The position numbers and the translations under genes were made by a program. Positions 17,960 through 63,998 of a stretch of DNA of 64,000 bases are shown here, piece after piece. Within the stretch, counting starts at the first letter, position 1, and every line of letters begins with the position of its first letter. The notes below the pieces were generated by a model, which ran no database searches, was not told the DNA's origin, and saw only the letters and a program-made list of their open reading frames with translations. Location of the stretch: positions 1 to 64,000 of IMG/VR virus record IMGVR_UViG_3300037418_003161; one strand, 5' to 3'. This DNA comes from a virus. Its lineage: Duplodnaviria > Heunggongvirae > Uroviricota > Caudoviricetes.

Positions 17960-18334
17960 CCGCACAAGCTGTATGTCGGGTATTTCATTTTCGTTTGTAA
18001 CGTGTACCACAATTTTAGGTTGCCCTAAATACTTGAAGAGTGTGAGATATTTTTTGGCAAGCACTTCATGTATATCCCATAAAAAGCGACCGCTTCTGTC
18101 ACCATAGTCCCTTTTGTTAAGGTATATATCCCGAAGTTGAATTTTAAATGCAATGGTGTTTCTTCTGGCATTTATGATAACGTCTTCAATGGTGATATAA
18201 TCTTCTGTGTGAACCGATAGAAGTTTACCTTTTTCGTTGGGTAATGTTTTAGTCCGGTACGTAATCGTGTATTCAATTTTGTCCAACAATTTATAGCGTT
18301 GTTTAAATAAATCGAGGATGGATTGTTGTGTCAT
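17948..18334 (-). CDS. Hypothetical protein
   Basis: 128-aa ORF in the gene run. Confidence 0.6.
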   Translation of the reverse strand: MTQQSILDLFKQRYKLLDKIEYTITYRTKTLPNEKGKLLSVHTEDYITIEDVIINARRNTIAFKIQLRDIYLNKRDYGDRSGRFLWDIHEVLAKKYLTLFKYLGQPKIVVHVTNENEIPDIQLVRLTL

Positions 18335-18782
18335 AGGTTAAAATATAATCACTGCAAACCCCCTTATGTAGAGTTGCCGCCCACTTTTCCACAGCTTTTA
18401 CTTCCGGCATCACGCAAATGGAATTGGGGGTGAGAGGACTGCCGGGATAGGCCCATATATACCCTTTGGACGTGATGGTATATTGGTCTTCTTCATGCCA
18501 GAAACAATGAATGTTCCGGTATTGGAGCAAGGCTTCCAACGCTTCTGTGTTTTTGGCGTGACACCACAACCGTTCATCCCGCAAAAAGTCTAGTGTGATG
18601 GGGTATTGAGCCGTGTCGTGCCCCAAATAAAACGTATCCCCCACTTTCCATACATCAACCTCACATTCAAAGCCCCGGTTAATGGTATCCATTACATACC
18701 TTGGGCTGTTTTCATGTTCAGGATTCGGGCCTTCCAGATTCCCCCGGTGACTGATTAATTTATAATTACAGGTTGAAGCCAT
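18303..18782 (-). CDS. GDPD/PLC-like phosphodiesterase-fold protein
   Basis: ISHRGN...EN...GFECEVDVW...LGHD...WCHAKN...GVCSD. Confidence 0.8.
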   Translation of the reverse strand: MASTCNYKLISHRGNLEGPNPEHENSPRYVMDTINRGFECEVDVWKVGDTFYLGHDTAQYPITLDFLRDERLWCHAKNTEALEALLQYRNIHCFWHEEDQYTITSKGYIWAYPGSPLTPNSICVMPEVKAVEKWAATLHKGVCSDYILTYDTTIHPRFI

Positions 18783-19578
18783 CGTTGCTGTTTAACCACA
18801 TGTATAACGATTCATTATTAACATCGCCGGGAACACCGTCATACAAGACCCGCTTCCACTTGTCCCCGTACTTGGCAACCATTCCTGCCTCCATGTTGGT
18901 TCGGGCTGTGGGGATGAATTCTCCTTGTGACATGGTTTCTTGGGTGATGTGCTTGTCCCGGTAGGAGGTGAAAGGTTGGTGAAAGATACCCACACTATCG
19001 CTCACGTAGGTTCTGTACCCATTTTGATGTAACTGGTGGGGGATGTCATAATCCAGCCCCCAACCATAGTAAAAACGGTTATCCAACAGGTCGGGAAGCC
19101 TGTTCCACGCTTCAGCCCTCAACATCGGACAAATAATTTCTACAAACGATTCCTTTCTTGCACCCCCGGAATTTTGATTGCATTGCCGTTGATGCACATG
19201 GGACATGTTTTGGATGTAGGGATGAATCTGTCCGATTTCCTCATTTGCCATCATCTGCTCATATAAAATGGACACCATATCCTGATTGTCAATAAATTTG
19301 GCATCATTGACAAACAACTGGTAGGCATCATACTGGTAGCCTTTCATGGCTGCGGTAAAATCGGCATATTGCTTAAGCAGATTAAACCCCCTTGTCATGC
19401 GGCAACCATCGTGTACCCACAGGGTCATGTACATGGAGACATTATCCAGTTTTGAACCTGTTTCAATAACATGGAGGTCGTAATCCACCTTGCTTGTCCG
19501 TTCAACAATTCCATGACACAAACTATCGGTGAGGTCTTTGTTGTTGTGACTAACGACCAGTATACAAACTTTACCCAT
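18766..19578 (-). CDS. Glycosyltransferase, GT-A/GT2-like
   Basis: CILVVSHN, VIETGS, NDA, GWGLDYD, VGIFH. Confidence 0.75.
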   Translation of the reverse strand: MGKVCILVVSHNNKDLTDSLCHGIVERTSKVDYDLHVIETGSKLDNVSMYMTLWVHDGCRMTRGFNLLKQYADFTAAMKGYQYDAYQLFVNDAKFIDNQDMVSILYEQMMANEEIGQIHPYIQNMSHVHQRQCNQNSGGARKESFVEIICPMLRAEAWNRLPDLLDNRFYYGWGLDYDIPHQLHQNGYRTYVSDSVGIFHQPFTSYRDKHITQETMSQGEFIPTARTNMEAGMVAKYGDKWKRVLYDGVPGDVNNESLYMWLNSNDGFNL

Positions 19579-19579
19579 A

Positions 19580-20389
19580 TTAATATTTTGCGGCGATTTC
19601 ATGCATTTCATTTCTGATTTGCTGCATCACAAACTGCTCATCCGAAATGACGTTATCGTTTAGATACCCTGTGGCACTCATTTGGCTTTCTACGGCTTCC
19701 TTCCAAATGGAATTGGGTTGTGTCCACAAACACAGGGTGCTTGACATACTCATGCCGTGACTGCGCCAGTACAGCTTTGCGCCGTACACCTTATGCATTT
19801 TGCCAATCTTATGAAGATAAATGGCAAAAATATCTTCAAAGATGGGCGACCACATGGTTTCAAACTGAAGGATGCCACTGTTTAAGAATTCCTCCCGGTT
19901 GACTATGACCGAGTGGGCAAAGGCCATGGTTTTGCTGCCGAGTGTGCCCCTTGTAAATTCTCCCCATGAAGCACAATCCCCGGAAATGAGGTTGTCGTTA
20001 TCATCCACCACATGCACCTCTGACCACGAACCATTCAGTCCTTCCGCTTCCATGGCTTCTACCTGAAGCTTTAGTTTATCTACATCCCAAAAATCATCGT
20101 AGTGCAGAAAGGCTACGTATTTGCTGTCCACTTCTTTCCAGCAATCGCTTATTTTTTTCCAAATGCCACCGGGCGCAAAAAAGGAATGGGGGTCGTGCCA
20201 CTTGACCCTTACACCCCGGCTCTCCAAGATGGCCTTGGCCTCCTCAGAGATGTTGGTGTCGGCAGCAACCGTTAGGATAAAATCCTGAGACGATTGGTTC
20301 AGGATGCTATCGATGGATTTTTCCAAGAGGCGGGGAACAGGTGTACCTTCAACAGAGACACCAATAGGTATTACAATGTGAGTTGTCAT
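19580..20389 (-). CDS. Glycosyltransferase family 2
   Basis: IVIP, SIDSILNQ, YVAFLHYDDFW..DKLKLQV, ED motif. Confidence 0.82.
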   Translation of the reverse strand: MTTHIVIPIGVSVEGTPVPRLLEKSIDSILNQSSQDFILTVAADTNISEEAKAILESRGVRVKWHDPHSFFAPGGIWKKISDCWKEVDSKYVAFLHYDDFWDVDKLKLQVEAMEAEGLNGSWSEVHVVDDNDNLISGDCASWGEFTRGTLGSKTMAFAHSVIVNREEFLNSGILQFETMWSPIFEDIFAIYLHKIGKMHKVYGAKLYWRSHGMSMSSTLCLWTQPNSIWKEAVESQMSATGYLNDNVISDEQFVMQQIRNEMHEIAAKY

Positions 20390-21147
20390 TAACTTAAAAT
20401 TTGTCTCCAATTAGGGCCGTATTTTTCGGCCATGATGATTTCCATTTCCCGCTTGGCTTCTTCATCCAAGGTGCGATAGGATTCATCTCCTACTTGTTTG
20501 ATGTAGGTATATTGTCCATGATGGTCGATAACCACCCCATCGTACATCCAGATTTCCTTTCCGGCCCGGTGCAGGGCAGTATAGAAATCCTTACCGGAAA
20601 AATAACACCTTGATAAACGGGGGTCTTGTCCTCCCACCAAATTCCAATCGGACTTGCGTACCAAAATGGGGGAAGTATCATCCATAGGGATTGCATCAAA
20701 GGCATTGGGCATCACTCTGCGGTAGCCCCCGTTATTGTTGGGGTCAAAAACGGTGAACCTATCCCCAATATAAACCGGAGTGGCATCTTGATTCAAGGCC
20801 GGGTGGATGACTGCAATTTGGGGATTGGCTTCCATGTGCATCACCATGTCATAAATGATATCCGGGGATTCTCTAAATGCCATGTCGTTGTGAAAATACA
20901 TGACGTACTTCACATCCGGCTTTCGGTTAAAATAATGGGCTGCTAGAAGTATTGCTCCCATGGTTCTTCCATTCACCAAAGCCCGGATGGTGGTGTATTT
21001 GGAGGGGTGGGCTTTATCGGAAGCGTTGTCCACCACACAGATTTCATAATCGGTTTTATCCAAATTGCGAACCAAGGCGTCATACACCTTGTCCGTTTCA
21101 TCGGGCAGATTGTAATTTAAAAGTGCAATTCCAACTTTGGGGGTCAT
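20389..21147 (-). CDS. Glycosyltransferase, GT2-like
   Basis: IALLNYN, ICVVDNASD, HND, VGGQD, VIDH. Confidence 0.8.
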   Translation of the reverse strand: MTPKVGIALLNYNLPDETDKVYDALVRNLDKTDYEICVVDNASDKAHPSKYTTIRALVNGRTMGAILLAAHYFNRKPDVKYVMYFHNDMAFRESPDIIYDMVMHMEANPQIAVIHPALNQDATPVYIGDRFTVFDPNNNGGYRRVMPNAFDAIPMDDTSPILVRKSDWNLVGGQDPRLSRCYFSGKDFYTALHRAGKEIWMYDGVVIDHHGQYTYIKQVGDESYRTLDEEAKREMEIIMAEKYGPNWRQILS

Positions 21148-21149
21148 GG

Positions 21150-23081
21150 TTAAATGATTGTAAAGGTGGGGATGGGTATGATGTATTTCCCCTTATAAAT
21201 TTTATTGATTTTTTCAATGATTTCGTTTTTGAAGTTCCACGACAGGATGATTAAATAATCGGGTGGGTTAACTTCAATTTCATGTTTGTTAACTATGGGA
21301 ATTCCCGTACCGGGCGAAAACTTTCCAATCTTTTCCGGGGTTTCATCGGCAATGTAGTTAATGATATCGCTGTTCAACCCGGCAGAATTTAAAAGTGTGT
21401 TTCCCTTAGCTGAAGCAGCAAAGGCCGCAATTTTATACCCCTGTTTTTTCAGTTCAAACACGCTACTTGCAAATGTTTTAATGGATTGTTCCACCGCACT
21501 TGCCCAACTGGAATATTTTTTCAAATCCTGAAACCCTTCTTCTTTTTCATAATTCAGGTAGTACCGTACCGCATCGTTGGGTCTTGCCTGAAGGTTTTGG
21601 GAGATGGTCACACGCACTGTTCCTCCGTGAATGCTGTGTTTTTCAACGTCCACAATCTGAAGACCGATTTGTTCACACAAATGATTAAGTGAGGAAATAC
21701 CAAAATACGACAGGTGTTCAAAATAAATGGTATCGTATTCGTAATTTTCAATGAAGTTGACCAAATAAGGAAACTCAATAACGATTTTACCATTTTCTGC
21801 AATAGCGTATTTACACGCCAGTAAAAAATTACACACGTTGTCCACATGAGCAAATACGTTGGTTGCGGTTATTACATCTGCTTTTCCATGTTTGCTCACA
21901 ATATCAACCGCCACATCATTGTTCCAAAAGTCGTTGATGGTTTCAACTCCATTGGCCTCCGCTATTGAAGCAAGGTTGCTGGCCGGGTCAACCCCAAGAA
22001 CTTTAAGCCCAATTTCCTCTTTGAATTCTTTAAGTAAGGTTCCATCGTTGGAAGCAATATCAACAATAAACGAAGCAGAAGTGAGTCCATATTTGGCTTG
22101 AAGATTTTTTGCCATCTTGCGGCAGTGCTTCACATAGCCGCCATTGATGGACGACCGATAGGTGTAATAAGAAAACATCTTTTGTGGGTTGACTACCACG
22201 CTAAGTTGGGAATGAAAACAGTTTTCACAGAAATTCACCTGTAGGGGGAAGCGGTTAATTTCCTTGGCCCGTTTGGAGGTAAACTCTAAATTGTTTGCAA
22301 GCGGCATTAAGCCAAGGTCGAGGTATTTTTCCAACGTTTTGCTGCCGCATACCCGGCACTCCTGTTTGGTCACAGCAATTGGGTTCTCCACGTTATAGTT
22401 CATCCACTTCTGAAGATTAAGAGAGGTGTCGTAGGGGGTGGCAAAAGAAGTACTTTCCAAAGAAGCTGGCTGCACACCGGGGTTTGACGTTTGGGCAAAC
22501 ACATACAGGCTCTTTCGTTCCGTTCCCACATTCAATACACCAGTGAGGGGACTTTCAGCCGCTTTCAATATCATTGGCGCAATTTCACTTACATAATCCT
22601 TTGATGTCCATTTGTCCACAAAGGCTTGTGTATATTTAAATTCCTTGTCAAAGGAGGTGCGAATAATTAAATGGTTGGCAACACAGACGGTAGAAGCCTC
22701 ACCACCCAACTTTGTCCAACTGTATAAATTAAAGGGAAGGATTTCGTCTGTCTCCTTGTAATTTCCCCGGTCTCCTTTGTAGATATAATCGGTGGAAATA
22801 TAAACCAACCGGACTTTTTGTTCCCGACAACTCATGGCTACATTTGCTGCGCCAATGATGTTGGTTTGAATAGCTGAAGTGGGGTCTTTTTCAATTTCCC
22901 GGTTGTTGATTTCAGCCGCCCCGTTGATGACAACATCAGGCTTGACCCGACGAATGTATTCAGCAACCACAGGTTGGTCGTTAATGTTCACTTCTGTTTT
23001 GGTGGGAGCAATGATATTGGGGTTGAGTCTTCTGAGTTCAGCACCTAGTGTACCATATCCTCCAAATAATAAAATTCGCAT
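21150..23081 (-). CDS. Fusion: RmlD-like NAD(P)-dependent sugar reductase + NDP-sugar C-methyltransferase
   Basis: GGYGTLG, YISTDY, YSWTK; then CRVCGS..DLGLMPLAN..CENC, DIASNDG, NVFAHV, YFEHLSYF, HGG, ASAKGNTLLN, LSWNF. Confidence 0.9.
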   Translation of the reverse strand: MRILLFGGYGTLGAELRRLNPNIIAPTKTEVNINDQPVVAEYIRRVKPDVVINGAAEINNREIEKDPTSAIQTNIIGAANVAMSCREQKVRLVYISTDYIYKGDRGNYKETDEILPFNLYSWTKLGGEASTVCVANHLIIRTSFDKEFKYTQAFVDKWTSKDYVSEIAPMILKAAESPLTGVLNVGTERKSLYVFAQTSNPGVQPASLESTSFATPYDTSLNLQKWMNYNVENPIAVTKQECRVCGSKTLEKYLDLGLMPLANNLEFTSKRAKEINRFPLQVNFCENCFHSQLSVVVNPQKMFSYYTYRSSINGGYVKHCRKMAKNLQAKYGLTSASFIVDIASNDGTLLKEFKEEIGLKVLGVDPASNLASIAEANGVETINDFWNNDVAVDIVSKHGKADVITATNVFAHVDNVCNFLLACKYAIAENGKIVIEFPYLVNFIENYEYDTIYFEHLSYFGISSLNHLCEQIGLQIVDVEKHSIHGGTVRVTISQNLQARPNDAVRYYLNYEKEEGFQDLKKYSSWASAVEQSIKTFASSVFELKKQGYKIAAFAASAKGNTLLNSAGLNSDIINYIADETPEKIGKFSPGTGIPIVNKHEIEVNPPDYLIILSWNFKNEIIEKINKIYKGKYIIPIPTFTII

Positions 23082-23135: not shown

Positions 23136-23957
23136 GTGAAAAGCTGCACCATTATTCCCACCCACCAACGACATTTCCACTATGCATATGAGGCATTGCG
23201 TACCCACAATCTGTACGTAGCCTCCGAGTTATATTTTGTGTTTTCTTCTGAGGAGGAAGCAGCATTGTTCCAACGTTCCGTCCCCGCAGAGTTACAACAC
23301 CCCCGGTGGCAATCCATTGTGGTTGCACCCAACAATGAGGAGGGAATCATCACCAAAAAGAAATTGGGGGCATTGGGCATTCTCTCACAACACTACACCT
23401 ATTTAGCCGTATTTGACTGTGAGGTTCTCTTTGTCAAACCCATGGACACGGACACCATCTATAAAGAAATTGTAGACTCCAAACTCTTTAAATCCAATAG
23501 GCGACACAACTCAACCCATCTGCGGGAGGTGGCAAAACGAATGGGGTATGAAAACAATGAAGTGCTTGTGGCACAAACCGAAGGGTTTACCCAATACTGG
23601 TGGTTCAATGAAATTTGCGTGTATGAACAAACTTTGTTTCAGGAGTTTTATGCTTGGTTGATTGCACATCCCAACTCCCACGAAATTTTAAACGATTTTG
23701 CCTGTTTTGATTATCTGCTTTACAGTATGTGGTTGATTTGTAACAAGGGGTATAGGGTTAAGAAGCACCTTTCCCATATCAGCTTTGCGGGAGCAGCCAT
23801 TGAAACCAATTACAACTCCAACGATATTTCCCACACCTTTCAGTCCTACCAAGACCGAAACATCAACCATCAGGAAATTGACCACATTAAGGTGCAAATC
23901 ATGGTTGACCGGGATTGGGAGCATTGTCAAAAAGAAGGACAACGCTTATACCTTTAG
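23136..23957 (+). CDS. Putative GT-A-fold glycosyltransferase-like protein
   Basis: IIP N-terminus, KK..AL..L..Y.YLAVFDCE (DxD-like); GTG start 11 nt after TATTTAT. Confidence 0.5.
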   Translation: MKSCTIIPTHQRHFHYAYEALRTHNLYVASELYFVFSSEEEAALFQRSVPAELQHPRWQSIVVAPNNEEGIITKKKLGALGILSQHYTYLAVFDCEVLFVKPMDTDTIYKEIVDSKLFKSNRRHNSTHLREVAKRMGYENNEVLVAQTEGFTQYWWFNEICVYEQTLFQEFYAWLIAHPNSHEILNDFACFDYLLYSMWLICNKGYRVKKHLSHISFAGAAIETNYNSNDISHTFQSYQDRNINHQEIDHIKVQIMVDRDWEHCQKEGQRLYL

Positions 23958-24629
23958 GGCATACTTTTCCATAACGTATTTCACTTCGCTGGCCTTGAGT
24001 TGTTCATTAATAGCTCTTTGGCTTTGCCCTTCCCACATTCTGGACACCGTGGTAATGGCATCCGTGGTTTTGGGTAGTCCGTACTTGTCGTACATCGTCC
24101 GGTAAAAATCACAATCCACCAATAGAGTTAAATTCCCATCGAAGTACTGGCAAGCTTCCCGCTTACACAGTAGAAGAGAGGGAGAGCCAATGGTATTTGC
24201 CCCTAAATAAATATTGGGAGTGTATTCAGGAATTAAGTGCCAGCTAAACGAATCCCCATAGCGGTGAATGGTAGCGCACAACCCCCAATCGGCAGCACCA
24301 AGGTTGTCTACTTCAATCTGCAAACTATTTGCGTCATAAAAATAATCATCCTGCAATAAAAACTTGATGTGTGTTCCGGTAGCCTTATCAATTAAGTTGT
24401 TGAAGTTGGCCGCAATACTACCCCGGCCATTTGCGTTTCGATAATAGTGGACGTTTTCCTTCGCCCAAGACGTGGAAAGATAATTTTCAATATCGTCGTT
24501 TTGGGAATGGTCGGAAATGAGTACTTCAAACTCCGTATAGGTTTGTAGAAAAACGGAATCTAGCAGTTCGGTTAAAAACTCCACACCCCGGCCTTTCATT
24601 TCGTAGGTTGGTACACAAATGGATATCAT
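23946..24629 (-). CDS. Glycosyltransferase family 2
   Basis: ISICVPTYE, EVLISDHS, IKFLLQDD, IGSPS, LVDCDFY. Confidence 0.88.
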   Translation of the reverse strand: MISICVPTYEMKGRGVEFLTELLDSVFLQTYTEFEVLISDHSQNDDIENYLSTSWAKENVHYYRNANGRGSIAANFNNLIDKATGTHIKFLLQDDYFYDANSLQIEVDNLGAADWGLCATIHRYGDSFSWHLIPEYTPNIYLGANTIGSPSLLLCKREACQYFDGNLTLLVDCDFYRTMYDKYGLPKTTDAITTVSRMWEGQSQRAINEQLKASEVKYVMEKYALKV

Positions 24630-24943
24630 ACATAAATTTTATCAGAAGGAATTGAGGGGAATTTTACCACTACGGTTGTAGAATCGCTCAGGGATTCAAA
24701 CATGGCTGCTTCTCCGGGTTCAATGCGAACAATTTCATCCTTTTTATAAATTTCACCATTCACCCTTACCGAGCCTTCCACAATGATTGTAAATTCTGTA
24801 ACGGCAACATGGTAGTGGGGAAGAGCGGTTTCCCCGGCTTTATAGCGTTTGATGCCCACTTCAAAATCTTTGGTGCGGTGCAAGGTTGGCTCAAAGTCGC
24901 CTACAAACCAATCCCTGTATTCACTTAAATGGTGTCGTGTCAT
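24626..24943 (-). CDS. Cupin-domain protein
   Basis: WFVGDFEP, HYH...E..IVEG, VVVKFPS. Confidence 0.8.
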   Translation of the reverse strand: MTRHHLSEYRDWFVGDFEPTLHRTKDFEVGIKRYKAGETALPHYHVAVTEFTIIVEGSVRVNGEIYKKDEIVRIEPGEAAMFESLSDSTTVVVKFPSIPSDKIYV

Positions 24944-26316
24944 ATTGTTCCTTTATAGTTTTGTAAAAAAAAGCTGAGGTCTTCGTGTGTCCCAATTCCC
25001 CACATTTTGTCAATCATATAGGGTTTAATCCGCAACTGCTCTTCAATGGCTTCGTTATAGACAGGAGCAACATAGAATTCGTTTTTATAGCGAATGCCTT
25101 TTTCAATCATTTGTTCGGCGTATTGTACATAATCCGACCCTTTATTCCACCAGTAGATGCCAACGGTAGCAAGGTCGCTGATAACTTCCTTTTCGGCCAC
25201 ATGGGTTATCAATCCATCTTCGTTGGTTTTCACATAGCTCCACTTGGGGTGGGTAGCCCTGAAACAAAGAATGCCACCATCCACCTTTTCCTCTTCCACG
25301 GAATAATAAAAGCGTTGACTGTCCCACTCCAAAAACTGGTCGGAATTGGCAATGAGGAGGTGTTTGTCGTTGTTGATGTATTCTTTTGCCAGAAGCGTAG
25401 AGCAAGCCGCCCCTTCGGTTACACCATTTACGGTTACAATTTTACATCCGGGGGTTATCAGGTTCAACAGAAATTTTAAATTATATTCAATATAATGTTT
25501 TTCCTGAACCACATAAATAAATTGGGCATCAATGGCAAGATTATCCACCACCACTTGCACCATGGGCTTTTGCCGCACTTCAATTAGGGGTTTGGGAAAT
25601 GTATATCCGGCTTGTGCGAATCTGCTGCCGAGACCACTCATGGGAATAAGAACGTTGTAATTTTTACCATCCCACTTGTTTTTACTTTGTTTTTGATTTA
25701 CATCCATGATTTTGTTGTAAATAAAATTATACGCAATGTCAGTTGGGTCGTTTACCTTTAATATGTGTCCACCACTGGCATTCGCCGCCTCCAATCCATA
25801 GGGGGAATCCTCCAAAATAAGACACTCCTTGGGACTTAAGCCTAACTTGGCAAAGGTTGTTAAGAACATTTCAGGGTTGGGTTTGGGGTATTTAACATCC
25901 TGATTGGACACCACCAAGTCTACATAGTTTACTACCTCCTGTTTTACCAACACACTATAGATAGTATGGGCTACAGAGTTGGAAGCCACGACAATTTTTA
26001 ACCCCTGTTCTTTTAATTTTTTAAACACCTCAATAAGATTCTCATCCCGCTTTACATAGTCAATAATGTATTCGATGGTAAATCTTTGCTTGAGGTTGTT
26101 TATGTCTTTATGTAGGTCAACTGGCAACCCCTTCTCGGTTGTAAGTATATTCAACTTGTTCTTGGTGGGAAGGCCGTCAAACTTGGAGTAATGGTCTTCC
26201 AATGATATCACATAGTTTTCATCCACTGAGGCAAGAGCCTGATTGAGTGCTTCATAATGACAGCTTTTCAGGGCTATCAGCGTACCGTCAAGGTCGAAGA
26301 TTACGGCTTTAATCAT
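24940..26316 (-). CDS. Fusion: HAD phosphatase + NTP-transferase (nucleotidyltransferase) domain
   Basis: FDLDGTL, KPNP, LEDS; then IPMSGLGSRF...KPLIEV, TEGAAC, ANSDQ, NEFYVAPVYN, GIGTHEDL. Confidence 0.88.
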   Translation of the reverse strand: MIKAVIFDLDGTLIALKSCHYEALNQALASVDENYVISLEDHYSKFDGLPTKNKLNILTTEKGLPVDLHKDINNLKQRFTIEYIIDYVKRDENLIEVFKKLKEQGLKIVVASNSVAHTIYSVLVKQEVVNYVDLVVSNQDVKYPKPNPEMFLTTFAKLGLSPKECLILEDSPYGLEAANASGGHILKVNDPTDIAYNFIYNKIMDVNQKQSKNKWDGKNYNVLIPMSGLGSRFAQAGYTFPKPLIEVRQKPMVQVVVDNLAIDAQFIYVVQEKHYIEYNLKFLLNLITPGCKIVTVNGVTEGAACSTLLAKEYINNDKHLLIANSDQFLEWDSQRFYYSVEEEKVDGGILCFRATHPKWSYVKTNEDGLITHVAEKEVISDLATVGIYWWNKGSDYVQYAEQMIEKGIRYKNEFYVAPVYNEAIEEQLRIKPYMIDKMWGIGTHEDLSFFLQNYKGTI

Positions 26317-26963
26317 TAAATTTCAACTATTACATGCCGGATTTGCGCTTCATTGGTATCTTCTTTAACGGTATACTCAAGATTGGATAATCCGAATTGT
26401 TTATAATCCACTTCTCCCATTCTCATTTGGTTGGAGAGCGTTTCATTGTTTTTATGATTGGGATGGGCTGACCCTGTATGGGTGTGTGGAAGGGAAATGT
26501 ATCTACCGTTTCTGCGTGAGATGGGAACATTTTCACGCTCACAGCGGTAGAAAAGGTCATCGTCTTCACCACCCCACCCCCAATATTCATTGTGGAAGCC
26601 ATTGATTTTTTCAAAAGAGGCTTTATCAAAAAGGGTAACACCCCCGAAGTAGTTGGCATAAGGCAGATGCCATCCAAACTGTTGCACCTCCACTGCCATG
26701 TGTGTTGGGGTCTCCACGTAGCTATAATCGGCTACCACTGGTAACATATCAACATCGTGCAGGGCCACATAATCACAACCTTCCTTAAAGGCAAGCACAC
26801 TGCCGACATTTAAAAGTTTACCCCGGTTGAAGGGTTTTTCTTGTGTTTGTTCCACCACATATATTTTAAAATCCACATCTTTAATATAGTGCTGCATGTG
26901 TTCAATAAACAAGGGTAGATGGTCTTCCCGGTTGCGGTAGGGTACGACAATTCCTAGTTTCAT
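26316..26963 (-). CDS. GT7-family (beta-1,4-galactosyltransferase-like) glycosyltransferase
   Basis: IVVPYRNREDHL, FNRGKLLNVG, HDVDMLP, YFGGV, INGFHNEYWGWGGEDDDL. Confidence 0.9.
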   Translation of the reverse strand: MKLGIVVPYRNREDHLPLFIEHMQHYIKDVDFKIYVVEQTQEKPFNRGKLLNVGSVLAFKEGCDYVALHDVDMLPVVADYSYVETPTHMAVEVQQFGWHLPYANYFGGVTLFDKASFEKINGFHNEYWGWGGEDDDLFYRCERENVPISRRNGRYISLPHTHTGSAHPNHKNNETLSNQMRMGEVDYKQFGLSNLEYTVKEDTNEAQIRHVIVEI

Positions 26964-27289: not shown

Positions 27290-27563
27290 ATATGTCTGAA
27301 TTTTCAGAGGGTTTAGATTCTTTGGGTGCTTCGGTTTTTTTTCGTTCTATAACTCGCTTTACGGTTTTAAGCACTTGTTCATCAGCTTGTTTCACAAGTT
27401 CCTCATAACTCATACCAGTTAATTGTTTCTTTTCGGGATTCGTCCCATATTTTTCTTCCATGAATGCTTTTTCAATCAACTTTGTTCCGTGAGCTACGGG
27501 GTCAAGCTGATTCAAATTACAATACGCCACAAAATCATCACTCAAGGTTACAGAGTACTTCAT
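27276..27563 (-). CDS. Hypothetical protein
   Basis: ORF in the gene run (YC.LN...KYG). Confidence 0.7.
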   Translation of the reverse strand: MKYSVTLSDDFVAYCNLNQLDPVAHGTKLIEKAFMEEKYGTNPEKKQLTGMSYEELVKQADEQVLKTVKRVIERKKTEAPKESKPSENSDIYGDS

Positions 27564-28347
27564 TCCCATTTTCAATATCGGCTATATCGGTTATTTTGAA
27601 CTTTAAATAAGGTGAATCATTTATCAGGTCTTCAAAAACATACGTACCTTTTTCAACATTGTACACACAAAACCCATGATATTTTATTGTTTCACCAAAA
27701 TTTTGTTGAATGACACTCCCCGGTTGGATTATGGGTGTTTTCTTACCGTTGCTTTCCAAAAACAACACTTGCCGTGAATGTATATCTCCGCACAGTACGA
27801 CATCACACCCTTCAAAAATTTCCACCTGATAGCCGTGTTCGATGACATGTGCCGTATTGGTTTTACAACCGTTGATTGCACCATGAAAAACACCAACATG
27901 TAGTCTGCCATCATTAGTAAAATCTGGCCGTTTGTTATTGTTATAAAGAGAATAAATCACCCAATTAATGTTTTCGTCTTCAAACACTCCGCTTTCCCGG
28001 TAATACGTCACATTTGGATTTTCAATCAGGTTCACCACCGGGGTAATGCTATCCAGCCGACCATGATTGTTTTCCAAAAAGTCATGGTTGCCGGGAATGA
28101 TAATGACCCTCCCAATTTTGCTTAATTTGTTTAACAACCATGCGGCAAACATGGTTTGCTCGTTGGAGATGCTTATTTTTTGATGAAAGAAGTCTCCGGC
28201 AATTACAATACGAATTTCTTCAGGGGTATACCCTTGTGACTGCTCCTTGAAACGCTCTATCATTTGGTTTAATACCTTGCGGTATTGGTCGTGAAAATGA
28301 TAATTGCGGATATGTAAATCGGCAATGTGGTAAATTAATTTTATCAT
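27538..28347 (-). CDS. SbcD/Mre11/T4 gp47-like metallophosphoesterase nuclease subunit
   Basis: HIADLH, IAGD, PGNHD, FHG, CGDIH, PGS..QQNFGE. Confidence 0.92.
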   Translation of the reverse strand: MIKLIYHIADLHIRNYHFHDQYRKVLNQMIERFKEQSQGYTPEEIRIVIAGDFFHQKISISNEQTMFAAWLLNKLSKIGRVIIIPGNHDFLENNHGRLDSITPVVNLIENPNVTYYRESGVFEDENINWVIYSLYNNNKRPDFTNDGRLHVGVFHGAINGCKTNTAHVIEHGYQVEIFEGCDVVLCGDIHSRQVLFLESNGKKTPIIQPGSVIQQNFGETIKYHGFCVYNVEKGTYVFEDLINDSPYLKFKITDIADIENGNEVLCNLE

Positions 28348-40340: not shown

Positions 40341-40354
40341 GTAGTTTATAAATA

Positions 40355-41056
40355 TTAAGAGCCACAGTAGGAAACACGGTTTATGGTAACGTACTGTGCG
40401 TACCCTTGTGGGATGGAATAGATGGGTATACCATTTTGTTCCACCATACATACATTGAGCGATGAACCATTGTCAATGAACAGGGTTTTGTATGCACCTG
40501 TATCGCAATCCAAGTAGGTAAATTCCAACAAATCTAACAAAGCCACATTAAAAGTAAAGTCGTAGGCAAACGAAACTTCATAATACCCACAATTAATTGT
40601 TACGCTTGGCGTGGGTGTTGGGGTTGGCGTTGCAGCCGGGGTCTTACTCAACGACACCGTAGGGGTTATGGTGGGTGTTGGTGACAAGGCCACTTTCATT
40701 GTAGGACTCGGTGTGAGCGAGACGCTGATGGAAGGGGTCAATGAGATGGTTGGTGTAACGGAGGGGGTAATGGAAGGTGTTGGGGTGATGGGATAGGTGA
40801 CATCCAGAAAGAACGTTCCATAACACGTATCACCACAATAAGCCGAAGCCGTTCGTACATATTTGGTGGTTCTGAAATTGGTAATAGTATCTTCCAACAC
40901 CACATACATCGTGTAGTTGTTGGGTAGATTATACAGTGTAATGTAGGAAGTGTTGGCAGGATAAGTATTGTAATACACCGTATTGAACGGCGTAGTGCCA
41001 GTGTATACCCTGAATATATTAACTTGCGTAATCCCTGTTACTACATAATCTGTCAT
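40355..41056 (-). CDS. Thr/Pro-rich virion protein
   Basis: Central TP tract, C-terminal C...Y.DC..C module; TATTTAT upstream. Confidence 0.7.
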
Positions 41057-50494: not shown

Positions 50495-51402
50495 TATGTA
50501 GAAATAATATCATCAAATCCTTTTGAAGTGTCAATGTTATCACCTCGGTCTTCCCGTACTTCAAAGAGTTTATTATTAATCTCGTCTTTAATTTCAAAGA
50601 GGTTGAACTGTTTATAAATATTTTTATCCTTGTCATAAATGGTGTAAATACCGTCTTCCATGGATTTTGTTTGGTTGCCGTACAAAGCGTAGGCAAGTGT
50701 TTGAAAGTCGTGTTCAACCATCTCTACTTCAATCACCACTGGATTGAAAAACGTATTGGATACAATGATGTTTTGATTGGGCTGTCCAATAAAGGGAATG
50801 GCGTTGGGTTTATTGGAGGGAGCAGAAGAGGGGGTCAGCGTACAAAACACCAAGTTGGATTGGGATTCCACATAGCGGTAACGAATGGCTTTTTGGTTCG
50901 TATTGGTCAAATTGGATACCACTGGTTCACAATAAAAGCAGGAGGTGATGATACGAAACAGGTTGGGTATTTTTGACCCATCGTTGTTTAAATACTCTAC
51001 CCGGTAGCCTACAAGTCCGTTATTGATAAAATTGTTGCGGTATTTGGAAGGTACGTTGGAAATGTCAATGACCACCCCCCGGATGGACGGTAGGGAGGCC
51101 AGTACACCACAATCCGCAATAGAAGTACGGATTTGGGTAGGACGTAGGTAAAGGGTGTATAAGCCCATGGCCGAAAACTCAGAGGAATCCAATTTTAAAT
51201 TGTATAGCCCTCCTAAAAGTTCCACGTTTTCATTTCCACCCGTTTGCGCATTGTGATACAGGGGTGTAATAATATCGGTGGAAACCAATTTTTTCATTGT
51301 CACTTGTTCATTAGCATCCCTCGATTTGACATAATGCATGATGATTTCCACGTCTTCAGGAGAAACATCCGCAGCCCTTTTTATTCCATACGACCCAATC
51401 AT
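50494..51402 (-). CDS. Conserved virion structural protein (baseplate region)
   Basis: Coupled to the giant baseplate gene; TATTTAT upstream; beta-rich. Confidence 0.7.
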   Translation of the reverse strand: MIGSYGIKRAADVSPEDVEIIMHYVKSRDANEQVTMKKLVSTDIITPLYHNAQTGGNENVELLGGLYNLKLDSSEFSAMGLYTLYLRPTQIRTSIADCGVLASLPSIRGVVIDISNVPSKYRNNFINNGLVGYRVEYLNNDGSKIPNLFRIITSCFYCEPVVSNLTNTNQKAIRYRYVESQSNLVFCTLTPSSAPSNKPNAIPFIGQPNQNIIVSNTFFNPVVIEVEMVEHDFQTLAYALYGNQTKSMEDGIYTIYDKDKNIYKQFNLFEIKDEINNKLFEVREDRGDNIDTSKGFDDIIST

Positions 51403-59736: not shown

Positions 59737-60146
59737 TATCCAATCCAGAGATTTTGATAGGCCGTCTTCACATTAGTTTTTTGTGTGGCCGTTAATGGTG
59801 TGGGATGCCATAGTTTAATTCTATTAACTATTCCAGAGCCAGTTGTTGCTTCCACGAAAAATATTCTTAAATCAGGTAATCCACATGCCGTTTTAAACCC
59901 TTCAAACTCTTCCCATAAATCACGTATTACTACTGTGACTCCCGAAGAGGGTGGGAATGTGGGATTGTCGGCCATAAGATTATCCAACTTTGTTTTTTCA
60001 GTAGTGGTTAATTCTCTATCAAACGTTAAACATGTTTGTTCTCCAATATCTCCGCTTCCTATGGGTTCAATCCCCACTTCCCATAAGCAGCGTTTGAGCA
60101 TATTCCAGCGATAACCCCCGGAAACTTTTGGATAATAATAGTCCAT
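59736..60146 (-). CDS. Hypothetical protein (possible fibre assembly chaperone)
   Basis: 136 aa with an internal duplication (LTxTxKTxLxxL twice); coupled to the giant gene. Confidence 0.6.
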   Translation of the reverse strand: MDYYYPKVSGGYRWNMLKRCLWEVGIEPIGSGDIGEQTCLTFDRELTTTEKTKLDNLMADNPTFPPSSGVTVVIRDLWEEFEGFKTACGLPDLRIFFVEATTGSGIVNRIKLWHPTPLTATQKTNVKTAYQNLWIG

Positions 60147-60216
60147 ATAATAAAATAGATTTTATGTCTAAATCATAAGAAAAAGACTGAGAATGTAAAC
60201 ATTCAACTATAAATAC

Positions 60217-63048
60217 TTAACATTGAGTTTGGGTTGCTTGAACCCGGATATATGAACCAACTGATGAATTGTATGTATAATCAATGGAAACTGGAATGAC
60301 ATCATTTACGTTGTAGTTTTTGATACAAACCGTTTGCAGTGTCGTGCCGCCATAGGAAAAAATCAACGTGGTTGAATAATTACCAAGTGCCTGAATGGTA
60401 ATATCCACACTGATTGTACCGCTACTTGTTCCAACGTTTACGTAATAATCTGTTGTATAGCCACCCTCAAATGCATTCATTGTTCTTGTTGTTCCACACT
60501 CATCATACACAATAGGTGTTGCCGTTGGAGTAAGAGTTGGAGTGGCTGTGGCAGTAATCGTGTTGGTTGGAGTTAAGGTTGGAGTACTTGTGACTGTAGA
60601 CGTTGATGTACGTGTAGGAGTATTAGTCGGCGTCAAAGTACTACTAGCAGTTACCGTACTGGTAGGTGTAACAGTAGATGTGGATGTGCATGTAGGAGTG
60701 TTTGTCGGAGTAGGAGTATTAGTCGGTGTCAAAGAACTGGTTGGTGTGTTCGTTGCAGTGGCCGTTCTTGTGGGTGTCACTGTCGTAGTGGGTGTATTAC
60801 TTGGGGTAACAGTATTTGTAGGTGTTACGGTGGATGTGGGTGTACCTGTACTGGTAGAAGTATTGGTTGGGGTATTTGATGCAGTAACCGTATTGGTTGG
60901 AGTCACGGTGCTTGTTGCTGTCCTTGTCGGAGTATTTGTTGCAGTGGGTGTATTTGATGCAGTAACCGTATTGGTTGGAGTCACTGTACTGGTAGGAGTC
61001 GTAGTGGGTGTACTGGTTTGAGTTGGGGTTACAGATGGTGTGGGTGTAAATGTTGGCGTGACGGTGGATGTGGGTGTATTAGTGGAAGTTGCGGTTCTCG
61101 TTGGAGACACACTCGATGTAGGTGTATTTGTAGGCGTTACGGTGTTGGTTGCCGTAACAGTACTAGTCGGTGTTACAGTTGTAGTAGATGATGGTGTAAC
61201 AGTGTTTGTTGGGGTCAGGGTATTTGTAGGGGTTACTGTACTTGTTGGTGTTACCGTAGCAGTGGGAGATACGGTCGGCGTATTGGTTGGTGTGTTCGTT
61301 GAGGTGGGTGTGTTGGATGCTGTGACCGTATTGGTTGGTGTTACTGTACTTGTTGGAGTTACCGTTGCTGTTGGGGTAACAGTTGGAGTATTTGATGCAG
61401 TTGGCGTATTAGTAGCCGTGGGTGTATTTGTCGATGTATTGCTTGGTGTTACGGTATTCGATGCTGTTACTGTGTTTGTTGGTGTTACCGTAGCTGTAAT
61501 AGATGCAGTAGGTGTATTTGTGGCAGTAGGTGTATTTGTAGGTGTGGTAGTGTTTGATGAAGTAACAGTATTGGTTGGCGTACTTGTTGATGTTGGAGTT
61601 TTTGTAGGTGTAACAGATGTAGTTGGTGTAGTAGTGGGTGTGGCCGTGTTCGTTGGAGTTACAGACGGTGTGGAACTAATAGAAGAGGTTGGAGTATTTG
61701 TTGGGGTTACTGTATTAGTCGGAGTAACAGTATTGCTTGGTGTTACGGTAAATGTAGGTGTGTTGGTAGGTGTGACCGTACTTGTCGGGGTAACAGAAGA
61801 TGTTGCAGTATTAGTTGGGGTAACAGTATTGGTAGGTGTGACCGTACTTGTCGGTGTTGCGGTAGATGTTGCAGTATTGGTAGGTGTAATGCTATTGGTG
61901 GGTGTATTAGTCGGTGTCAACGTGTTTGTCGGAGTAACGGTATTCGTTGGAGTTACAGACGGTGTGGATGTTACTGTTGATGTTGGGGTGGTAGTCGGGG
62001 TATTTGATGCAGTTGGGGTGTTAGACGCTGTTGTTGTGTTTGTGGGTGTTACTGTACTTGTTGGCGTATTTGTTGAAGTAGCGGTTTTTGTAGGTGTAAT
62101 AGATGCAGTCGGGGTAAAAGTCGGAGTAGCTGTATTAGTGGGTGTTACTGATGGTGTCGGCGTATTCGTTGAAGTTGGTGTATTGGTGGACGTAACGGTA
62201 CTTGTTGGGGTTACAGTAGAAGAAGAGGTAACTGTTGGCGTATTCGTTGAAGTTGGTGTGTTAGTAGGTGTTACGCTTGCTGTCGTCGTATTAGTAGGTG
62301 TAGCAGTACTTGTACTAGTTGGTGTATTAGTAGGCGTTACACTTGGTGTTACCGTATTGGTTGGAGTAGTAGTAGGTGTGGCACTCTGTGAAATAGAGGG
62401 TGTAACCGTTGCTGTAGGGGTAAAAGTCGGAGTAGCTGTATTGGTTGGGGTTACAGTATTGGTAGGGGTAACTGTGGCTGTTGGTGTGACCGTTGATGTT
62501 GCCGTGGTAGTCGGTGTATTCGTTGGTGTCACCGAATTGGTAGGTGTAACAGTTGGTGTGGGAGTATTACTTGCTGTGGCCGTATTTGACGGTGTAACCG
62601 TTGATGTTGGTGTTACTGTAGAAGTCGAAGTCCTTGTGGGAGTGTTGGTCGGTGTTACGGTGGATGTTGGCGTATTGGTAGCAGTAGGCGTATTACTTGC
62701 CGTTACACTCGCCGTGGGGGTGTTGGTAGGCGTAGCTGTACTTGTACTAGTTGGGGTACTTCCCGGTGTTCCTGTTGGTGTTGCGGTGTTGGATGCTGTA
62801 ACAGTATTACTTGGTGTTACTGTAGCTGTAGGGGTTAAGGTACTTGTAGCGGTGGCTGTAGGTGTTGGCGTTTGAGTGGCGCAAGGCGACACATCACTAA
62901 CAATACCATTTCCCCCGGTAACAGTGAAATAGTTTGTGCCGTTGGAATAATAGCCATCAGGCACAGGGGTTGATAAGGCATTGTCCGTAAACAACTGACA
63001 TCCTGTTGTTATTGTTTGACAAGTAGTGAAATAATAAGCATTCGCCAT
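60217..63048 (-). CDS. Mucin-like Thr/Pro/Ser-repeat virion protein
   Basis: About 790 of 943 residues form a (T/S)-X alternating tract between short Cys-containing end domains; TATTTAT 6 nt upstream. Confidence 0.8.
60515..62880 (-). repeat. Low-complexity coding repeat, T-x-T-P-(T/S)-(N/S) units
   Basis: Seen in translation; DNA codons vary between units. Confidence 0.9.
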
Positions 63049-63080
63049 TAATTAATAAATAAACATTTTTATAAAAATTG

Positions 63081-63998
63081 TCAAGGACAACTATTTATGT
63101 CTGTTATCACACCATTTGAGAATGTAATTACCTGTGGGTTTGAGCTTAAATTATAGATATAGTTTCCAGTAATTGTTGATTTTTGACAACCCGCAAATTC
63201 ATACGCTTGCTGACCAACTTCTACGCTTGCAATAAATTTTGTTACTCCGTGAAAACTATAGCCAGTTACCCCATAGTACTGTGTATAACTACACGCCTCT
63301 TGGACTGTAGTTTGTGTTAAATCTATCGTGCCTCCGCTATATGTCATATCATACCATAACACAACAGAATTGGTTGGTTTGGGACACGTTGATGTCGGAG
63401 TAGGGGTATTCGTAGCAGTGACAGTAGGTGTAATGGTTGACGTTATTGTGGCTGTCGGTGTTGATGTAGCGGTATTTGATGGTGTTACCGTATTGGTTGG
63501 AGTATTGGTCGGGGTCGCAGTTGGCGCAACACACTGTTCTTGAAATGTTATCGTAACTCCTGAAGCAACTAAACCGCCTGAATTATTAAAGTAATATTGA
63601 TTGATGTTTACGATACCATTTTGTAAACCAACTGTACCATCATTTACTGTAGCATTGCTGTTTACACCTTCTCCATAACAAAATTCAATTTTTCCGGTTT
63701 GTTCATATAAACGTGCTTCATAGTCAAAGTTTATCCCTGTTTTTGTTGATGTATAATCATTAATTCTCCACTCTACAACAAAAATACGATTCGGGGCTGA
63801 CCCATAAGTTGCTGTAAAGATACCTCTACCTGTGTGGTCACTACGTTGGTCATCCCACCAAGGAAATATGGTTTTACCAAACCCTGATGCGGGTAGTGCT
63901 GAATTATTAAATTGCGTATTGGAGCTATCGAATTGTAAGTTACCGTTGGTGCTAATTGTAACACCCGTAAAATTTGTACCATAAAAACTAAAACTAAA
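63081..63998 (-). CDS. 3' end of another NIDO-like/TP-tract virion protein (start beyond the window)
   Basis: Manual translation open from the edge: FSFSFYGTNFTGVTISTNGNLQF...IFPWWDD...GSAPNRIFVVEWR...EARLYE, then a TP tract, ending ...DINSCP. Confidence 0.8.
   Translation of the reverse strand, partial: FSFSFYGTNFTGVTISTNGNLQFDSSNTQFNNSALPASGFGKTIFPWWDDQRSDHTGRGIFTATYGSAPNRIFVVEWRINDYTSTKTGINFDYEARLYEQTGKIEFCYGEGVNSNATVNDGTVGLQNGIVNINQYYFNNSGGLVASGVTITFQEQCVAPTATPTNTPTNTVTPSNTATSTPTATITSTITPTVTATNTPTPTSTCPKPTNSVVLWYDMTYSGGTIDLTQTTVQEACSYTQYYGVTGYSFHGVTKFIASVEVGQQAYEFAGCQKSTITGNYIYNLSSNPQVITFSNGVITDINSCP

What the first reader, a model, noticed from the sequence alone, without database searches (positions are those of the whole stretch)
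18303..63998. Candidate phage-encoded mucin-like virion glycocalyx: long Thr/Ser acceptor tracts plus a private glycosylation pathway
Seen: at least eight late/structural ORFs (36390-63998) carry Pro-interspersed T/S tracts, well over a thousand residues in total. The same window has a ~9 kb cluster with four GT2-like enzymes, a GT7, a fifth GT-like ORF, an RmlD/C-methyltransferase fusion, a HAD/nucleotidyltransferase fusion, a cupin and a GDPD-like protein. Known: P/T linkers of bacterial cellulases and animal mucins are O-glycosylated into stiff, protease-resistant stalks; virion glycosylation is described for some mycobacteriophages and giant viruses. Inferred: this phage makes activated branched sugars and decorates its fibres with a glycan brush that projects adhesin and enzyme domains through host capsule or shields the particle.
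Basis: partly seen in the sequence, partly recalled or inferred. Interest (0 to 1): 0.85.

Follow-up and report, generated by a model that had tools for sequence, protein, structure and literature searches.

The report
Phage Thr-Pro stalks, mobile glycan cassette
A large uncultured phage has about 2,000 residues of threonine-proline tracts in likely tail-base proteins, which are probably sugar-coated, but the nearby ten-gene sugar cassette also occurs in unrelated phages without such tracts, so it would likely only finish the coat while another enzyme, predicted to lie off this contig, starts it.

Summary
Eight ORFs carry 2,077 Thr/Ser-Pro tract residues in the window, with Thr/Ser at every second position. 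The sugar island is real. The phage is a 73%-complete T4-like bS21-type myovirus.

The "private pathway" link fails. The island is an insertion between Mre11 and Rad50. Up to 10 of its 10 genes recur in non-clade phages, and 0 of 20 such loci have tracts. Complete relatives with 1,307 and 1,457 tract residues lack it.

Tracts instead follow a GT60 mucin-type starter enzyme: 32 of 37 GT60 loci have them, against 3 of 41 HAD/nucleotidyltransferase loci and a 26% background. GT60 is in 3 of 3 complete relatives but not in the held part of this genome. In three relatives it lies 11-17 kb past the gene at which this contig ends.

Most likely the tracts are O-glycosylated stalks, primed by GT60 and capped by the cassette. 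No sugar has been measured. This scan noted the GT60/tract pairing before on other genomes.

The parts
18303..18782 (-). Small phosphodiesterase-like ('GDPD-like') protein, last gene of the cassette
   Evidence: PHROG 34507 only; homologues beside HAD/nucleotidyltransferase in 68 of 83 viral loci; the name is a recalled resemblance
18766..19611 (-). GT2a, DUF707-like GT-A glycosyltransferase
   Evidence: PF05212 E 6e-9; 114 proteins hit, itself included; 20 viral loci
19580..20410 (-). GT2b glycosyltransferase
   Evidence: PF00535 E 2e-6
20389..21147 (-). GT2c glycosyltransferase, distant paralogue of GT2a
   Evidence: PF00535 E 0.003, below cut-off; 27% identical to GT2a; 66-80% identical to genes of non-clade phages
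21150..23081 (-). RmlD-like reductase fused to an NDP-hexose C-methyltransferase
   Evidence: PF04321, PF08421, PF13489, PF08484; the two halves are separate genes in other cassettes
23136..23957 (+). GTx: DUF6492-like GT-A-fold transferase on the opposite strand, with a late-type motif 18 nt upstream
   Evidence: Atlas features 0.97 to DUF6492; model pLDDT 94.9; best Z 13.3, rmsd 3.8, 214 aligned to GlcNAc-1-phosphotransferase, GT8/GT6 at 11.6-10.6; motif
23946..24629 (-). GT2d glycosyltransferase
   Evidence: PF00535 E 1e-11
24626..24943 (-). Short cupin
   Evidence: PF07883 E 7e-5, below cut-off; PHROG 24762
24940..26316 (-). HAD phosphatase fused to a sugar nucleotidyltransferase
   Evidence: PF13419 + PF00483; 52% identical to cyanophage genes; also in Pelagibacter, SAR86 and other genomes
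26316..26963 (-). GT7 glycosyltransferase, first gene of the cassette
   Evidence: PF13733 + PF02709
15557..17941 (-). Rad50/gp46-like ATPase, left flank of the insertion
   Evidence: Pfam; 0.8-2.7 kb from Mre11 in 7 of 7 relatives holding both, 9.6 kb here
27538..28347 (-). Mre11/gp47-like nuclease, right flank of the insertion
   Evidence: Metallophos; synteny
36390..38492 (-). 700-aa tract protein with a weak PA14-like region and a C-terminal Hint domain
   Evidence: 33 tract residues; PT-HINT E 1.5e-6, PA14 E 0.09
38535..40451 (-). 638-aa tract protein
   Evidence: 203 tract residues
40355..41056 (-). 233-aa tract protein
   Evidence: 63 tract residues
41069..42400 (-). 443-aa tract protein
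   Evidence: 76 tract residues
42413..50494 (-). 2,693-aa protein: clade-conserved N-terminal part, tract, deacetylase-like domain, unassigned domains, tract, PHB-depolymerase-type esterase
   Evidence: 226 tract residues; N-terminal part in 9 of 10 relatives; PF15421 E 2e-5; TIGR01840 E 1e-7; both below cut-off
50494..51402 (-). Clade-conserved 302-aa protein of the baseplate module (no tract), used as clade marker
   Evidence: 59 viral loci at 60-66% identity
52387..59736 (-). 2,449-aa modular protein with six tracts between globular domains
   Evidence: 642 tract residues; no Pfam family at cut-off
60217..63048 (-). 943-aa protein that is 83% tract
   Evidence: 780 tract residues
63081..64000 (-). 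3' part of a 543-aa tract protein with a weak NIDO-like domain (gene runs to 64712)
   Evidence: 188 tract residues, 54 in the window; PF06119 E 0.001

Best explanation
The window holds two separable things: alternating Thr/Ser-X tracts in proteins of the baseplate gene module, likely O-glycosylated stalks on the virion, and a ten-gene glycan cassette inserted between Mre11 and Rad50 that also occurs in unrelated phages and would likely extend and cap virion glycans rather than start them. Shown: the tracts, the insertion, the spread of the cassette, and the pairing of tracts with GT60 in relatives. Inferred mechanism: (1) a soluble GT60 polypeptide GlcNAc-transferase, predicted to lie in the missing 27% of this genome, primes Thr/Ser in the host cytoplasm; (2) the cassette makes unusual donors, a C-methyl-branched 6-deoxyhexose from a host 4-keto-6-deoxy NDP-sugar and a second activated sugar from the HAD/nucleotidyltransferase-cupin-GDPD module; (3) GT7, four GT2s and the late-expressed GTx add them, GTx possibly as a sugar phosphate; (4) the coated stalks resist proteases and hold binding and capsule-degrading domains away from the baseplate.
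For: Tract design: Thr/Ser at 92-96% of odd offsets from Pro, all Thr and Pro codons used, only short degenerate DNA repeats. This points to selection on the protein. Tracts within 10 kb: 32 of 37 dereplicated GT60 loci against 3 of 41 HAD/nucleotidyltransferase loci, background 96 of 363 windows; 2 of those 3 also hold GT60. GT60 is in 7 of 15 records, 3 of 3 complete, and directly adjoins tract genes in G002 and G009. G005 lacks both GT60 and tracts at that site. This contig ends inside a GT2-like gene, and GT60 lies 11-17 kb past its orthologue in G001, G004 and G007; none of that site's flanking genes except IMPDH is held here. The genome lies between two GT60-bearing subclades in a 7-gene tree. 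Cassette enzymes have no membrane segment. A TATTTAT motif precedes sheath, tube, scaffold and neck orthologues (12/13, 12/12, 10/10, 12/13), four of the eight window tract genes directly plus the genes in front of two more, and GTx. In 10 of 20 non-clade cassette loci a TPR-GT2 with weak similarity to the SunS peptide glycosyltransferase is present, a candidate alternative starter.
Against: No sugar has been measured. No GT60 was found in the 236 kb held, so the starter is a prediction; IMPDH, a neighbour of that site in G003/G004, is held here without GT60. GT60, tracts and clade membership are confounded: among 13 long HAD/nucleotidyltransferase records the same three have all three, and the GT60 profile was seeded from this clade. 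G003 has GT60 with only 71 tract residues, none within 10 kb, and G018 has GT60 with no TPTxTPT pattern. Nine of the ten cassette genes sit in a replication operon without the late-type motif (0 of 5 HAD/nucleotidyltransferase orthologues). The motif is only weakly tied to GT60 (27 of 84) and tract genes (20 of 53), is absent before the capsid gene (0 of 11), and may partly reflect AT-rich leaders. Virion location of the tract proteins has no family-level support. The SunS hit is far below its cut-off (42.5 of 350 bits).
Confidence: 0.45

Rival explanations
1. The cassette remodels the host surface (LPS or capsule), for example to block superinfection. It has nothing to do with the virion; the tracts are a separate matter.
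For: This is the reading of Chen et al. 2022 for sugar genes of bS21 phages (PMC9723584, section read). The HAD/nucleotidyltransferase gene occurs in 75 loci of prokaryote genomes, 36 with the GDPD-like gene. The operon lies among replication genes without the late-type motif.
Against: No membrane segment in any cassette enzyme, and no flippase, polymerase or lipid-carrier family among its ten genes. Near-identical cassettes occur in phages of unrelated groups. A GT2a scan of 185,579 prokaryote genomes returned 0 loci, though 2 of the 75 prokaryote loci hold GT2a/c homologues.
Confidence: 0.2
2. The tracts are bare, stiff Pro/Thr spacers. No phage enzyme glycosylates them, and the GT60 pairing reflects shared ancestry.
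For: Clade and GT60 are confounded. One bacterial cellulase with Ser-Pro-Thr linkers was found not glycosylated while two partners were (PMC6794216, passages). No starter enzyme is held in this genome.
Against: GT60 sits within 10 kb of tracts three times as often as background windows of tract-bearing genomes (32 of 37 against 26%). It occupies two different sites in the clade. G005, nested in the tree, lacks both.
Confidence: 0.15
3. The cassette hypermodifies phage DNA with sugars to resist host nucleases.
For: It lies inside a replication/recombination operon here, and directly after clamp, clamp-loader and RegA-like genes in other T4-like phages (those gene names are read from sequence, not tested). 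T4 alpha-glucosyltransferase lies beside gene 47 (recalled). GT-A enzymes do glycosylate phage DNA (bioRxiv 10.1101/2023.12.21.572611, passages).
Against: Those clusters come with a 5-methylpyrimidine dioxygenase or a thymidylate-synthase-like enzyme. Neither family was found among 202 proteins of this genome. The ThyA family was in 1 of 5 records, not this one nor cassette-bearing G042. The TET search was blank but its control did not ring, and 27% of the genome is missing.
Confidence: 0.1
4. One reading: the cluster is a private, self-sufficient pathway that both starts and builds the glycans on these tracts.
For: This genome has the most tract residues of 13 examined (2,860) and no GT60 in the held part. 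GTx carries the late-type motif. A lineage could have replaced its starter with a cassette enzyme or with the lone GT2-like gene at 138035.
Against: 0 of 20 cassette loci (13 clusters) have tracts within 10 kb, and 0 of 5 of their records (19-70% complete) hold the tract pattern. No GT2a-d or GTx homologue in 12 fetched relatives, ten of which have tracts. Three complete viral records and three cultured cyanophages have the HAD/nucleotidyltransferase gene and no tract pattern.
Confidence: 0.1

Closest known systems
bS21-encoding Bacteroidetes myoviruses (Chen et al. 2022, PMC9723584) and the similar 'moraphages' (Perez-Hernandez et al. 2025, PMC12619734)
   Same: T4-like sheath, gp25, portal, terminase and capsid genes; bS21 on the opposite strand among them; PhoH, Clp, many sugar genes; core glycosyltransferases.
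   Different: The passages read do not mention tracts ('threonine' has 0 occurrences in PMC12619734). Chen reads the sugar genes as LPS remodelling; the moraphage paper lists DNA, serotype and virion as options. This phage's DNA was found in soil and rhizosphere runs, whereas those sets are mostly aquatic.
Mycobacteriophage virion glycosylation (Che8, Corndog, Myrna; Freeman et al. 2023, seen only as described in PMC12363180 and PMC12619734)
   Same: Phage-encoded glycosyltransferases acting on the phage's own particle proteins.
   Different: Those glycans are on capsid and tail tube subunits of small actinophages. Here the predicted acceptors are thousands of Thr/Ser in linker tracts of baseplate-module proteins, with phage-made donor sugars. 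Homology to Che8 gp110 was not tested.
O-glycosylated Ser/Pro/Thr linkers of bacterial cellulases and CipA (PMC6794216, passages)
   Same: Pro/Thr linkers between catalytic and binding modules; glycans are tied to proteolytic stability there.
   Different: Those are secreted enzymes with galacto-oligosaccharides; these proteins are assembled in the cytoplasm. One linker-bearing cellulase in that paper was not glycosylated.
CAZy GT60 / Pfam PF11397 polypeptide GlcNAc-transferases of protists (activity recalled and taken from earlier scan notes)
   Same: Relatives carry a gene at E 1e-47 to 1e-63 to PF11397 beside tract proteins.
   Different: Not found in the held part of this genome; phage members are untested.
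Phage DNA-glycosylating clusters (Pyle et al., bioRxiv 10.1101/2023.12.21.572611)
   Same: GT-A enzymes plus sugar-modifying genes in phage genomes.
   Different: No dioxygenase or thymidylate-synthase-like partner found here.

Membership tests
bS21-encoding Bacteroidetes myoviruses (Chen 2022) | Encodes ribosomal protein bS21 | tested here: met
   TIGR00030 40.4 bits, cut-off 28.95, genome 181186-181371
bS21-encoding Bacteroidetes myoviruses (Chen 2022) | bS21 on the opposite strand among terminase, portal, prohead protease and capsid genes | tested here: met
   bS21 on +; TerL 186104, portal 182371, protease 178654 and capsid 173614 on -
bS21-encoding Bacteroidetes myoviruses (Chen 2022) | Falls in one of the five published clades, or among moraphages, in a marker tree | not tested
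   The published genomes were not in my tree
bS21-encoding Bacteroidetes myoviruses (Chen 2022) | Bacteroidota host | not tested
   Assumed from the clade; no spacer or gene-taxonomy test
Phage virion glycosylation systems | Phage-encoded glycosyltransferases | tested here: met
   Six in the cassette, plus four GT-like genes and one cut-off GT2-like gene elsewhere
Phage virion glycosylation systems | Acceptor proteins are part of the virion | tested here: inconclusive
   Position next to Baseplate_J and gp25 genes and an upstream motif support it; profile searches gave no significant structural family; weak Atlas lead 0.77 to baseplate wedge
Phage virion glycosylation systems | Glycans detected on virion proteins and lost in a transferase mutant | not testable with these tools
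   Needs cultured phage and mass spectrometry
GT60-primed mucin-type O-glycosylation | A GT60 (PF11397) gene in the genome | tested here: inconclusive
   None in the 236 kb held, but the record is 73% complete and one of two known sites lies past the contig end
GT60-primed mucin-type O-glycosylation | Long Thr/Ser-Pro acceptor tracts | tested here: met
   2,860 residues in 10 ORFs
Phage DNA-glycosylating clusters | Partner enzyme that makes a hydroxylated base (TET/JBP or thymidylate-synthase family) | tested here: inconclusive
   None in the held part; the TET control did not ring; genome incomplete
Serotype-converting (Gtr-type) phage loci | Membrane-bound flippase and transferase | tested here: not met
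   Highest 19-residue hydropathy in any cassette protein is 1.45; no such Pfam family
Stealth sugar-phosphotransferases (for GTx) | Stealth fold and conserved-region sequence motifs | tested here: inconclusive
   Best structural match Z 13.3 against 11.6 for GT8; no Stealth Pfam hit; Foldseek ranked GT6 first

The most novel reading that the evidence does not exclude
Large T4-like phages build a two-part virion glycocalyx: a lineage-specific starter (GT60 on Thr-Pro stalks in this clade, a SunS-like TPR-GT2 in others) plus a swappable ten-gene capping cassette that moves between unrelated phage lineages and adds a C-methyl-branched sugar and a phosphodiester-linked cap. That would be a phage counterpart of O-antigen serotype switching, on a brush of well over a thousand potential acceptor sites per set of tail proteins.
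Probability: 0.3. Interest if true: 0.85.

Novelty: new variant of a known kind. Interest (0 to 1): 0.55.

Why it matters
Virion glycosylation has been shown for few phages. Mucin-like stalks made in a bacterial cytoplasm by phage enzymes would be a different architecture, and it would give a testable job to the sugar islands of a widespread group of large phages, now read as LPS remodelling or DNA protection. The cassette is a compact, soluble, well-conserved set of uncharacterised enzymes (C-methyltransferase/reductase, HAD/nucleotidyltransferase-cupin-GDPD module, a GT-A protein with a Stealth-like fold) that can be assayed without culturing the phage. The result also warns that a glycosyltransferase cluster near an acceptor-like protein need not be its pathway.

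Tried and rejected
Extending the contig to find GT60: an end-of-contig pattern found nothing in viral or metagenome contigs, nor did the last protein. No cultured close relative: the clade marker, GT2a and the 138035 gene had no match among 50,697 phage records; the best capsid matches were 37-42% identical.

Expression: no RNA holder listed.

Structural identity of the tract proteins: profiles of the conserved parts of 42413 and 34845 gave nothing significant in PDB or PHROGs. The fold job for the 42413 part was still unfinished, so no model or fold search exists. The wide VIA search for GTx was not run; only the second look at Foldseek's matches was.

Blank searches whose controls did not ring, so not counted as absence: GT60 in three cyanophages and G015, GT60 in 12 cassette records, TET.

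The whole record G042 was not read, so Ser/Thr tracts of other kinds and base-modifying genes in a cassette-bearing non-clade phage remain only partly checked.

The three core glycosyltransferases (152253, 156845, 157899) were considered as starters and set aside: they are present with or without tracts and the two GT-B genes lack the late-type motif (0/13, 0/12). The host Bacteroidetes D-S/T-x motif was set aside: 1 occurrence inside tracts, and that system is periplasmic (recalled). An assembly artefact was rejected: contigs in X1 span both island borders, and one in independent run X2 spans the left border with no differing letters. A slippage-generated DNA repeat was rejected.

Full report
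WHAT THE GENOME IS. The window is the first 64 kb of a 236,419-base virus record, 73% complete. It encodes a T4-like capsid, portal, terminase, sheath, tube, gp25 and baseplate J. It also encodes bS21 (TIGR00030 over its cut-off) on the strand opposite the head genes. That is the layout of the bS21 myoviruses of Bacteroidetes (PMC9723584; abstract passage, search passages and one section read). The similar moraphages have four core glycosyltransferase groups (PMC12619734; abstract, passages, section 12 and the first part of section 11 read). I did not place the genome among the published ones. Near-identical DNA lies in soil and rhizosphere runs. Contigs of X1 (possibly the source) span both island borders, and one of X2 spans the left border.

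THE OBSERVATION. Eight ORFs hold 2,077 tract residues inside the window; ten hold 2,860 in the genome. The tracts are (Thr/Ser-X)n: Thr or Ser fills 92-96% of the positions 1, 3 and 5 from each Pro, and 488 of 498 Pro spacings are even. All Thr and Pro codons are used and the DNA repeats are short and degenerate, so I infer selection on the protein. Shuffles give 644-845 residues. The ten island genes are as described, with the caveats that 'GDPD-like' has no library support and two hits are below cut-off. GTx, on the plus strand, is a GT-A fold (pLDDT 94.9). Foldseek ranks GT6 first; the second look ranks Stealth-type sugar-phosphotransferases first (Z 13.3, rmsd 3.8, 214 aligned) over GT8 and GT6 (11.6-10.6). 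The tract genes lie in the gene block that runs from gp25 and baseplate J (76944-79621) down to 34845, conserved in order in relatives. No family match proves they are virion proteins.

I read 12 related records (G001-G012; 3 complete, the rest 26-75%; G013 and G014 searched but not read). Tract residues: G001 1,307; G002 1,457; G003 71; G004 558; G005 0; G006 813; G007 77; G008 1,083; G009 1,699; G010 450; G011 0; G012 267. G007 lacks the baseplate block, and partial records give lower bounds. None has a homologue of the four GT2s or GTx. The HAD/nucleotidyltransferase module or part of it is in G005, G009, G011 and G012, and absent from the three complete ones. Most relatives have other sugar islands at other sites, so 'many sugar genes' and 'tracts' do share a clade; this cluster does not track the tracts. 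Mre11 and Rad50 are 0.8-2.7 kb apart in 7 of 7 relatives holding both and 9.6 kb apart here: the island is an insertion.

THE CASSETTE TRAVELS. A GT2a profile found 20 viral loci in 13 clusters. Fourteen hold 6 or more of the 10 genes, and L465 holds all 10, at up to 80% identity. Their flanks share no clade gene above 30% identity, and 0 of 20 have tracts. Five of their records (19-70% complete) have no tract pattern. GT2a returned 0 loci from prokaryote genomes, though 2 of 75 prokaryote HAD/nucleotidyltransferase loci hold GT2a/c homologues. The HAD/nucleotidyltransferase and GDPD-like pair is wider still: cultured cyanophages at 52%, Pelagibacter, SAR86 and others. Three cultured cyanophages and three complete viral records that have it show no tract pattern.

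WHAT TRACKS THE TRACTS. Earlier scan notes on other genomes pointed to GT60; I took that lead and tested it. PF11397 is in 7 of 15 records, 3 of 3 complete. After dereplication at 90% and keeping loci of 15 kb or more (37 of 84 GT60 loci, 41 of 83 HAD/nucleotidyltransferase loci), tracts of 50 or more residues lie within 10 kb of 32 of 37 and 3 of 41; undereplicated, 72 of 84 and 4 of 83; background 96 of 363 windows. GT60 occupies two sites: beside the polymerase (G002, G003, G009, G012), where it can adjoin tract genes, and 11-17 kb past a GT2-like gene (G001, G004, G007). This genome has no GT60 at the first site or anywhere in the held DNA, and its contig ends inside that GT2-like gene. 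In a 7-gene tree it lies between two GT60-bearing subclades; G005, nested among them under a midpoint root, lacks both GT60 and tracts in its 72%. Limits: GT60, tracts and clade coincide in 3 of 13 long records (15 given, 2 not held); the profile was seeded from the clade; kin are not independent; G003 and G018 have GT60 with few or no Thr-Pro tracts.

TIMING AND PLACE OF ACTION. No cassette enzyme has a membrane segment. A candidate late motif precedes structural genes, most tract genes here and GTx, but not the main cassette operon, which follows primase and Mre11. This fits donors made early and a cap added late. It also fits an early, non-virion job for nine of the ten genes. In other T4-like phages the cassette ends with a SunS-like TPR-GT2 (10 of 20 loci; weak hit) that this genome lacks, which suggests different starters for the same cassette. 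That step is inference.

MECHANISM AND RIVALS. Best supported (0.45): GT60-primed, cassette-capped O-glycan stalks. The donor chemistry follows from family knowledge (recalled): C3-methylation of an NDP-4-keto-6-deoxyhexose, then 4-reduction; the cassette has no dehydratase, so the host or a missing gene must supply the keto sugar.

WHAT IS KNOWN. Mycobacteriophage virion glycosylation is known to me only through PMC12363180 (passages) and PMC12619734; the primary paper was not held. Glycosylated cellulase linkers: PMC6794216 (passages). DNA glycans: bioRxiv 10.1101/2023.12.21.572611 (passages; its supplements were closed and may list related enzymes). Supplementary tables of PMC9723584 and PMC12619734 were not read and may annotate GT60 or the tract proteins. 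Searches for phage + proline-threonine + glycosylation + virion and for bacteriophage + tail fibre + mucin-like + glycosyltransferase returned 0 papers; one search returned 11, and none of their listings describes such tracts (I saw listings only for all but two). The library lacks most subscription journals. This scan has recorded the GT60/tract idea in at least nine other genomes and the nucleotidyltransferase-cupin-GDPD module in others; these are unchecked notes, not support. What this window adds is the separation of the cassette from the tracts and its spread as a ten-gene unit.

VERDICT. Observation confirmed; interpretation partly supported; new variant of a known kind; interest 0.55.

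Noticed in passing
Genome-wide; window 23118, and upstream of 36390, 40355, 41069, 50494, 59736, 60217: A TATTTAT motif precedes 54 of 244 ORFs on the coding strand (22 antisense). It is kept before sheath, tube, scaffold, neck and terminase orthologues but not primase, Mre11, Rad50, RecA or sigma: a candidate late promoter of the clade, the reverse complement of the T4 late box (recalled).
   Followed up: partly
G000 138035-138868 (L267:7036-7869): Lone GT2-like gene with the late-type motif, absent from the relatives examined; 304 proteins hit in the database, including one named from Puia sp.. A candidate alternative starter or extender.
   Followed up: partly
G009 1-13227, G001 226505-245424, G002 314955-317258, G012 1-1409: Relatives carry a second kind of tract, Gly-Ser-Ser-Gly-Thr-Ser repeats, up to about 1,900 residues in one ORF; G004 and G008 carry Ser-Leu-Ser-Ser tracts. 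This genome's held part has none.
   Followed up: no
window 36390-36860: C-terminal Hint domain on a tract protein; possibly self-cleaving.
   Followed up: no
window 42416-46717: Deacetylase-like and PHB-depolymerase-type esterase domains, and a 590-aa unassigned domain that looks like a glycoside hydrolase by eye, appended to a clade-conserved protein; candidate capsule-degrading modules.
   Followed up: partly
L453, L455, L461, L450, L464 (3' end of the cassette): A 400-aa TPR-GT2 weakly like SunS ends the cassette just before genes that look like virion-structure genes (the latter label is by eye).
   Followed up: partly
L304:12171-13439 (G018): GT60 two genes from a 422-aa protein that is 51% Ser/Thr, in a record with no TPTxTPT pattern.
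   Followed up: no
G012 90335-93030: GDPD-like, nucleotidyltransferase without HAD, cupin and a 409-aa gene that may be the RuBisCO-like protein of earlier scan notes; not tested.
   Followed up: no
window 11909-12751: Membrane protein with a 41-residue Pro/Thr/Ser/Glu tract, conserved in several relatives, beside an amidase gene.
   Followed up: no
window 249-5357; G000 116814, 213916-217629: Three leucine-rich-repeat genes and DnaJ; a phenylalanyl-tRNA-synthetase-like gene; an OmpA/ABC-transporter group.
   Followed up: no
Runs X2-X4: Near-identical DNA in soil and rhizosphere metagenomes of three studies besides the possible source, unusual for a mostly aquatic clade.
   Followed up: partly
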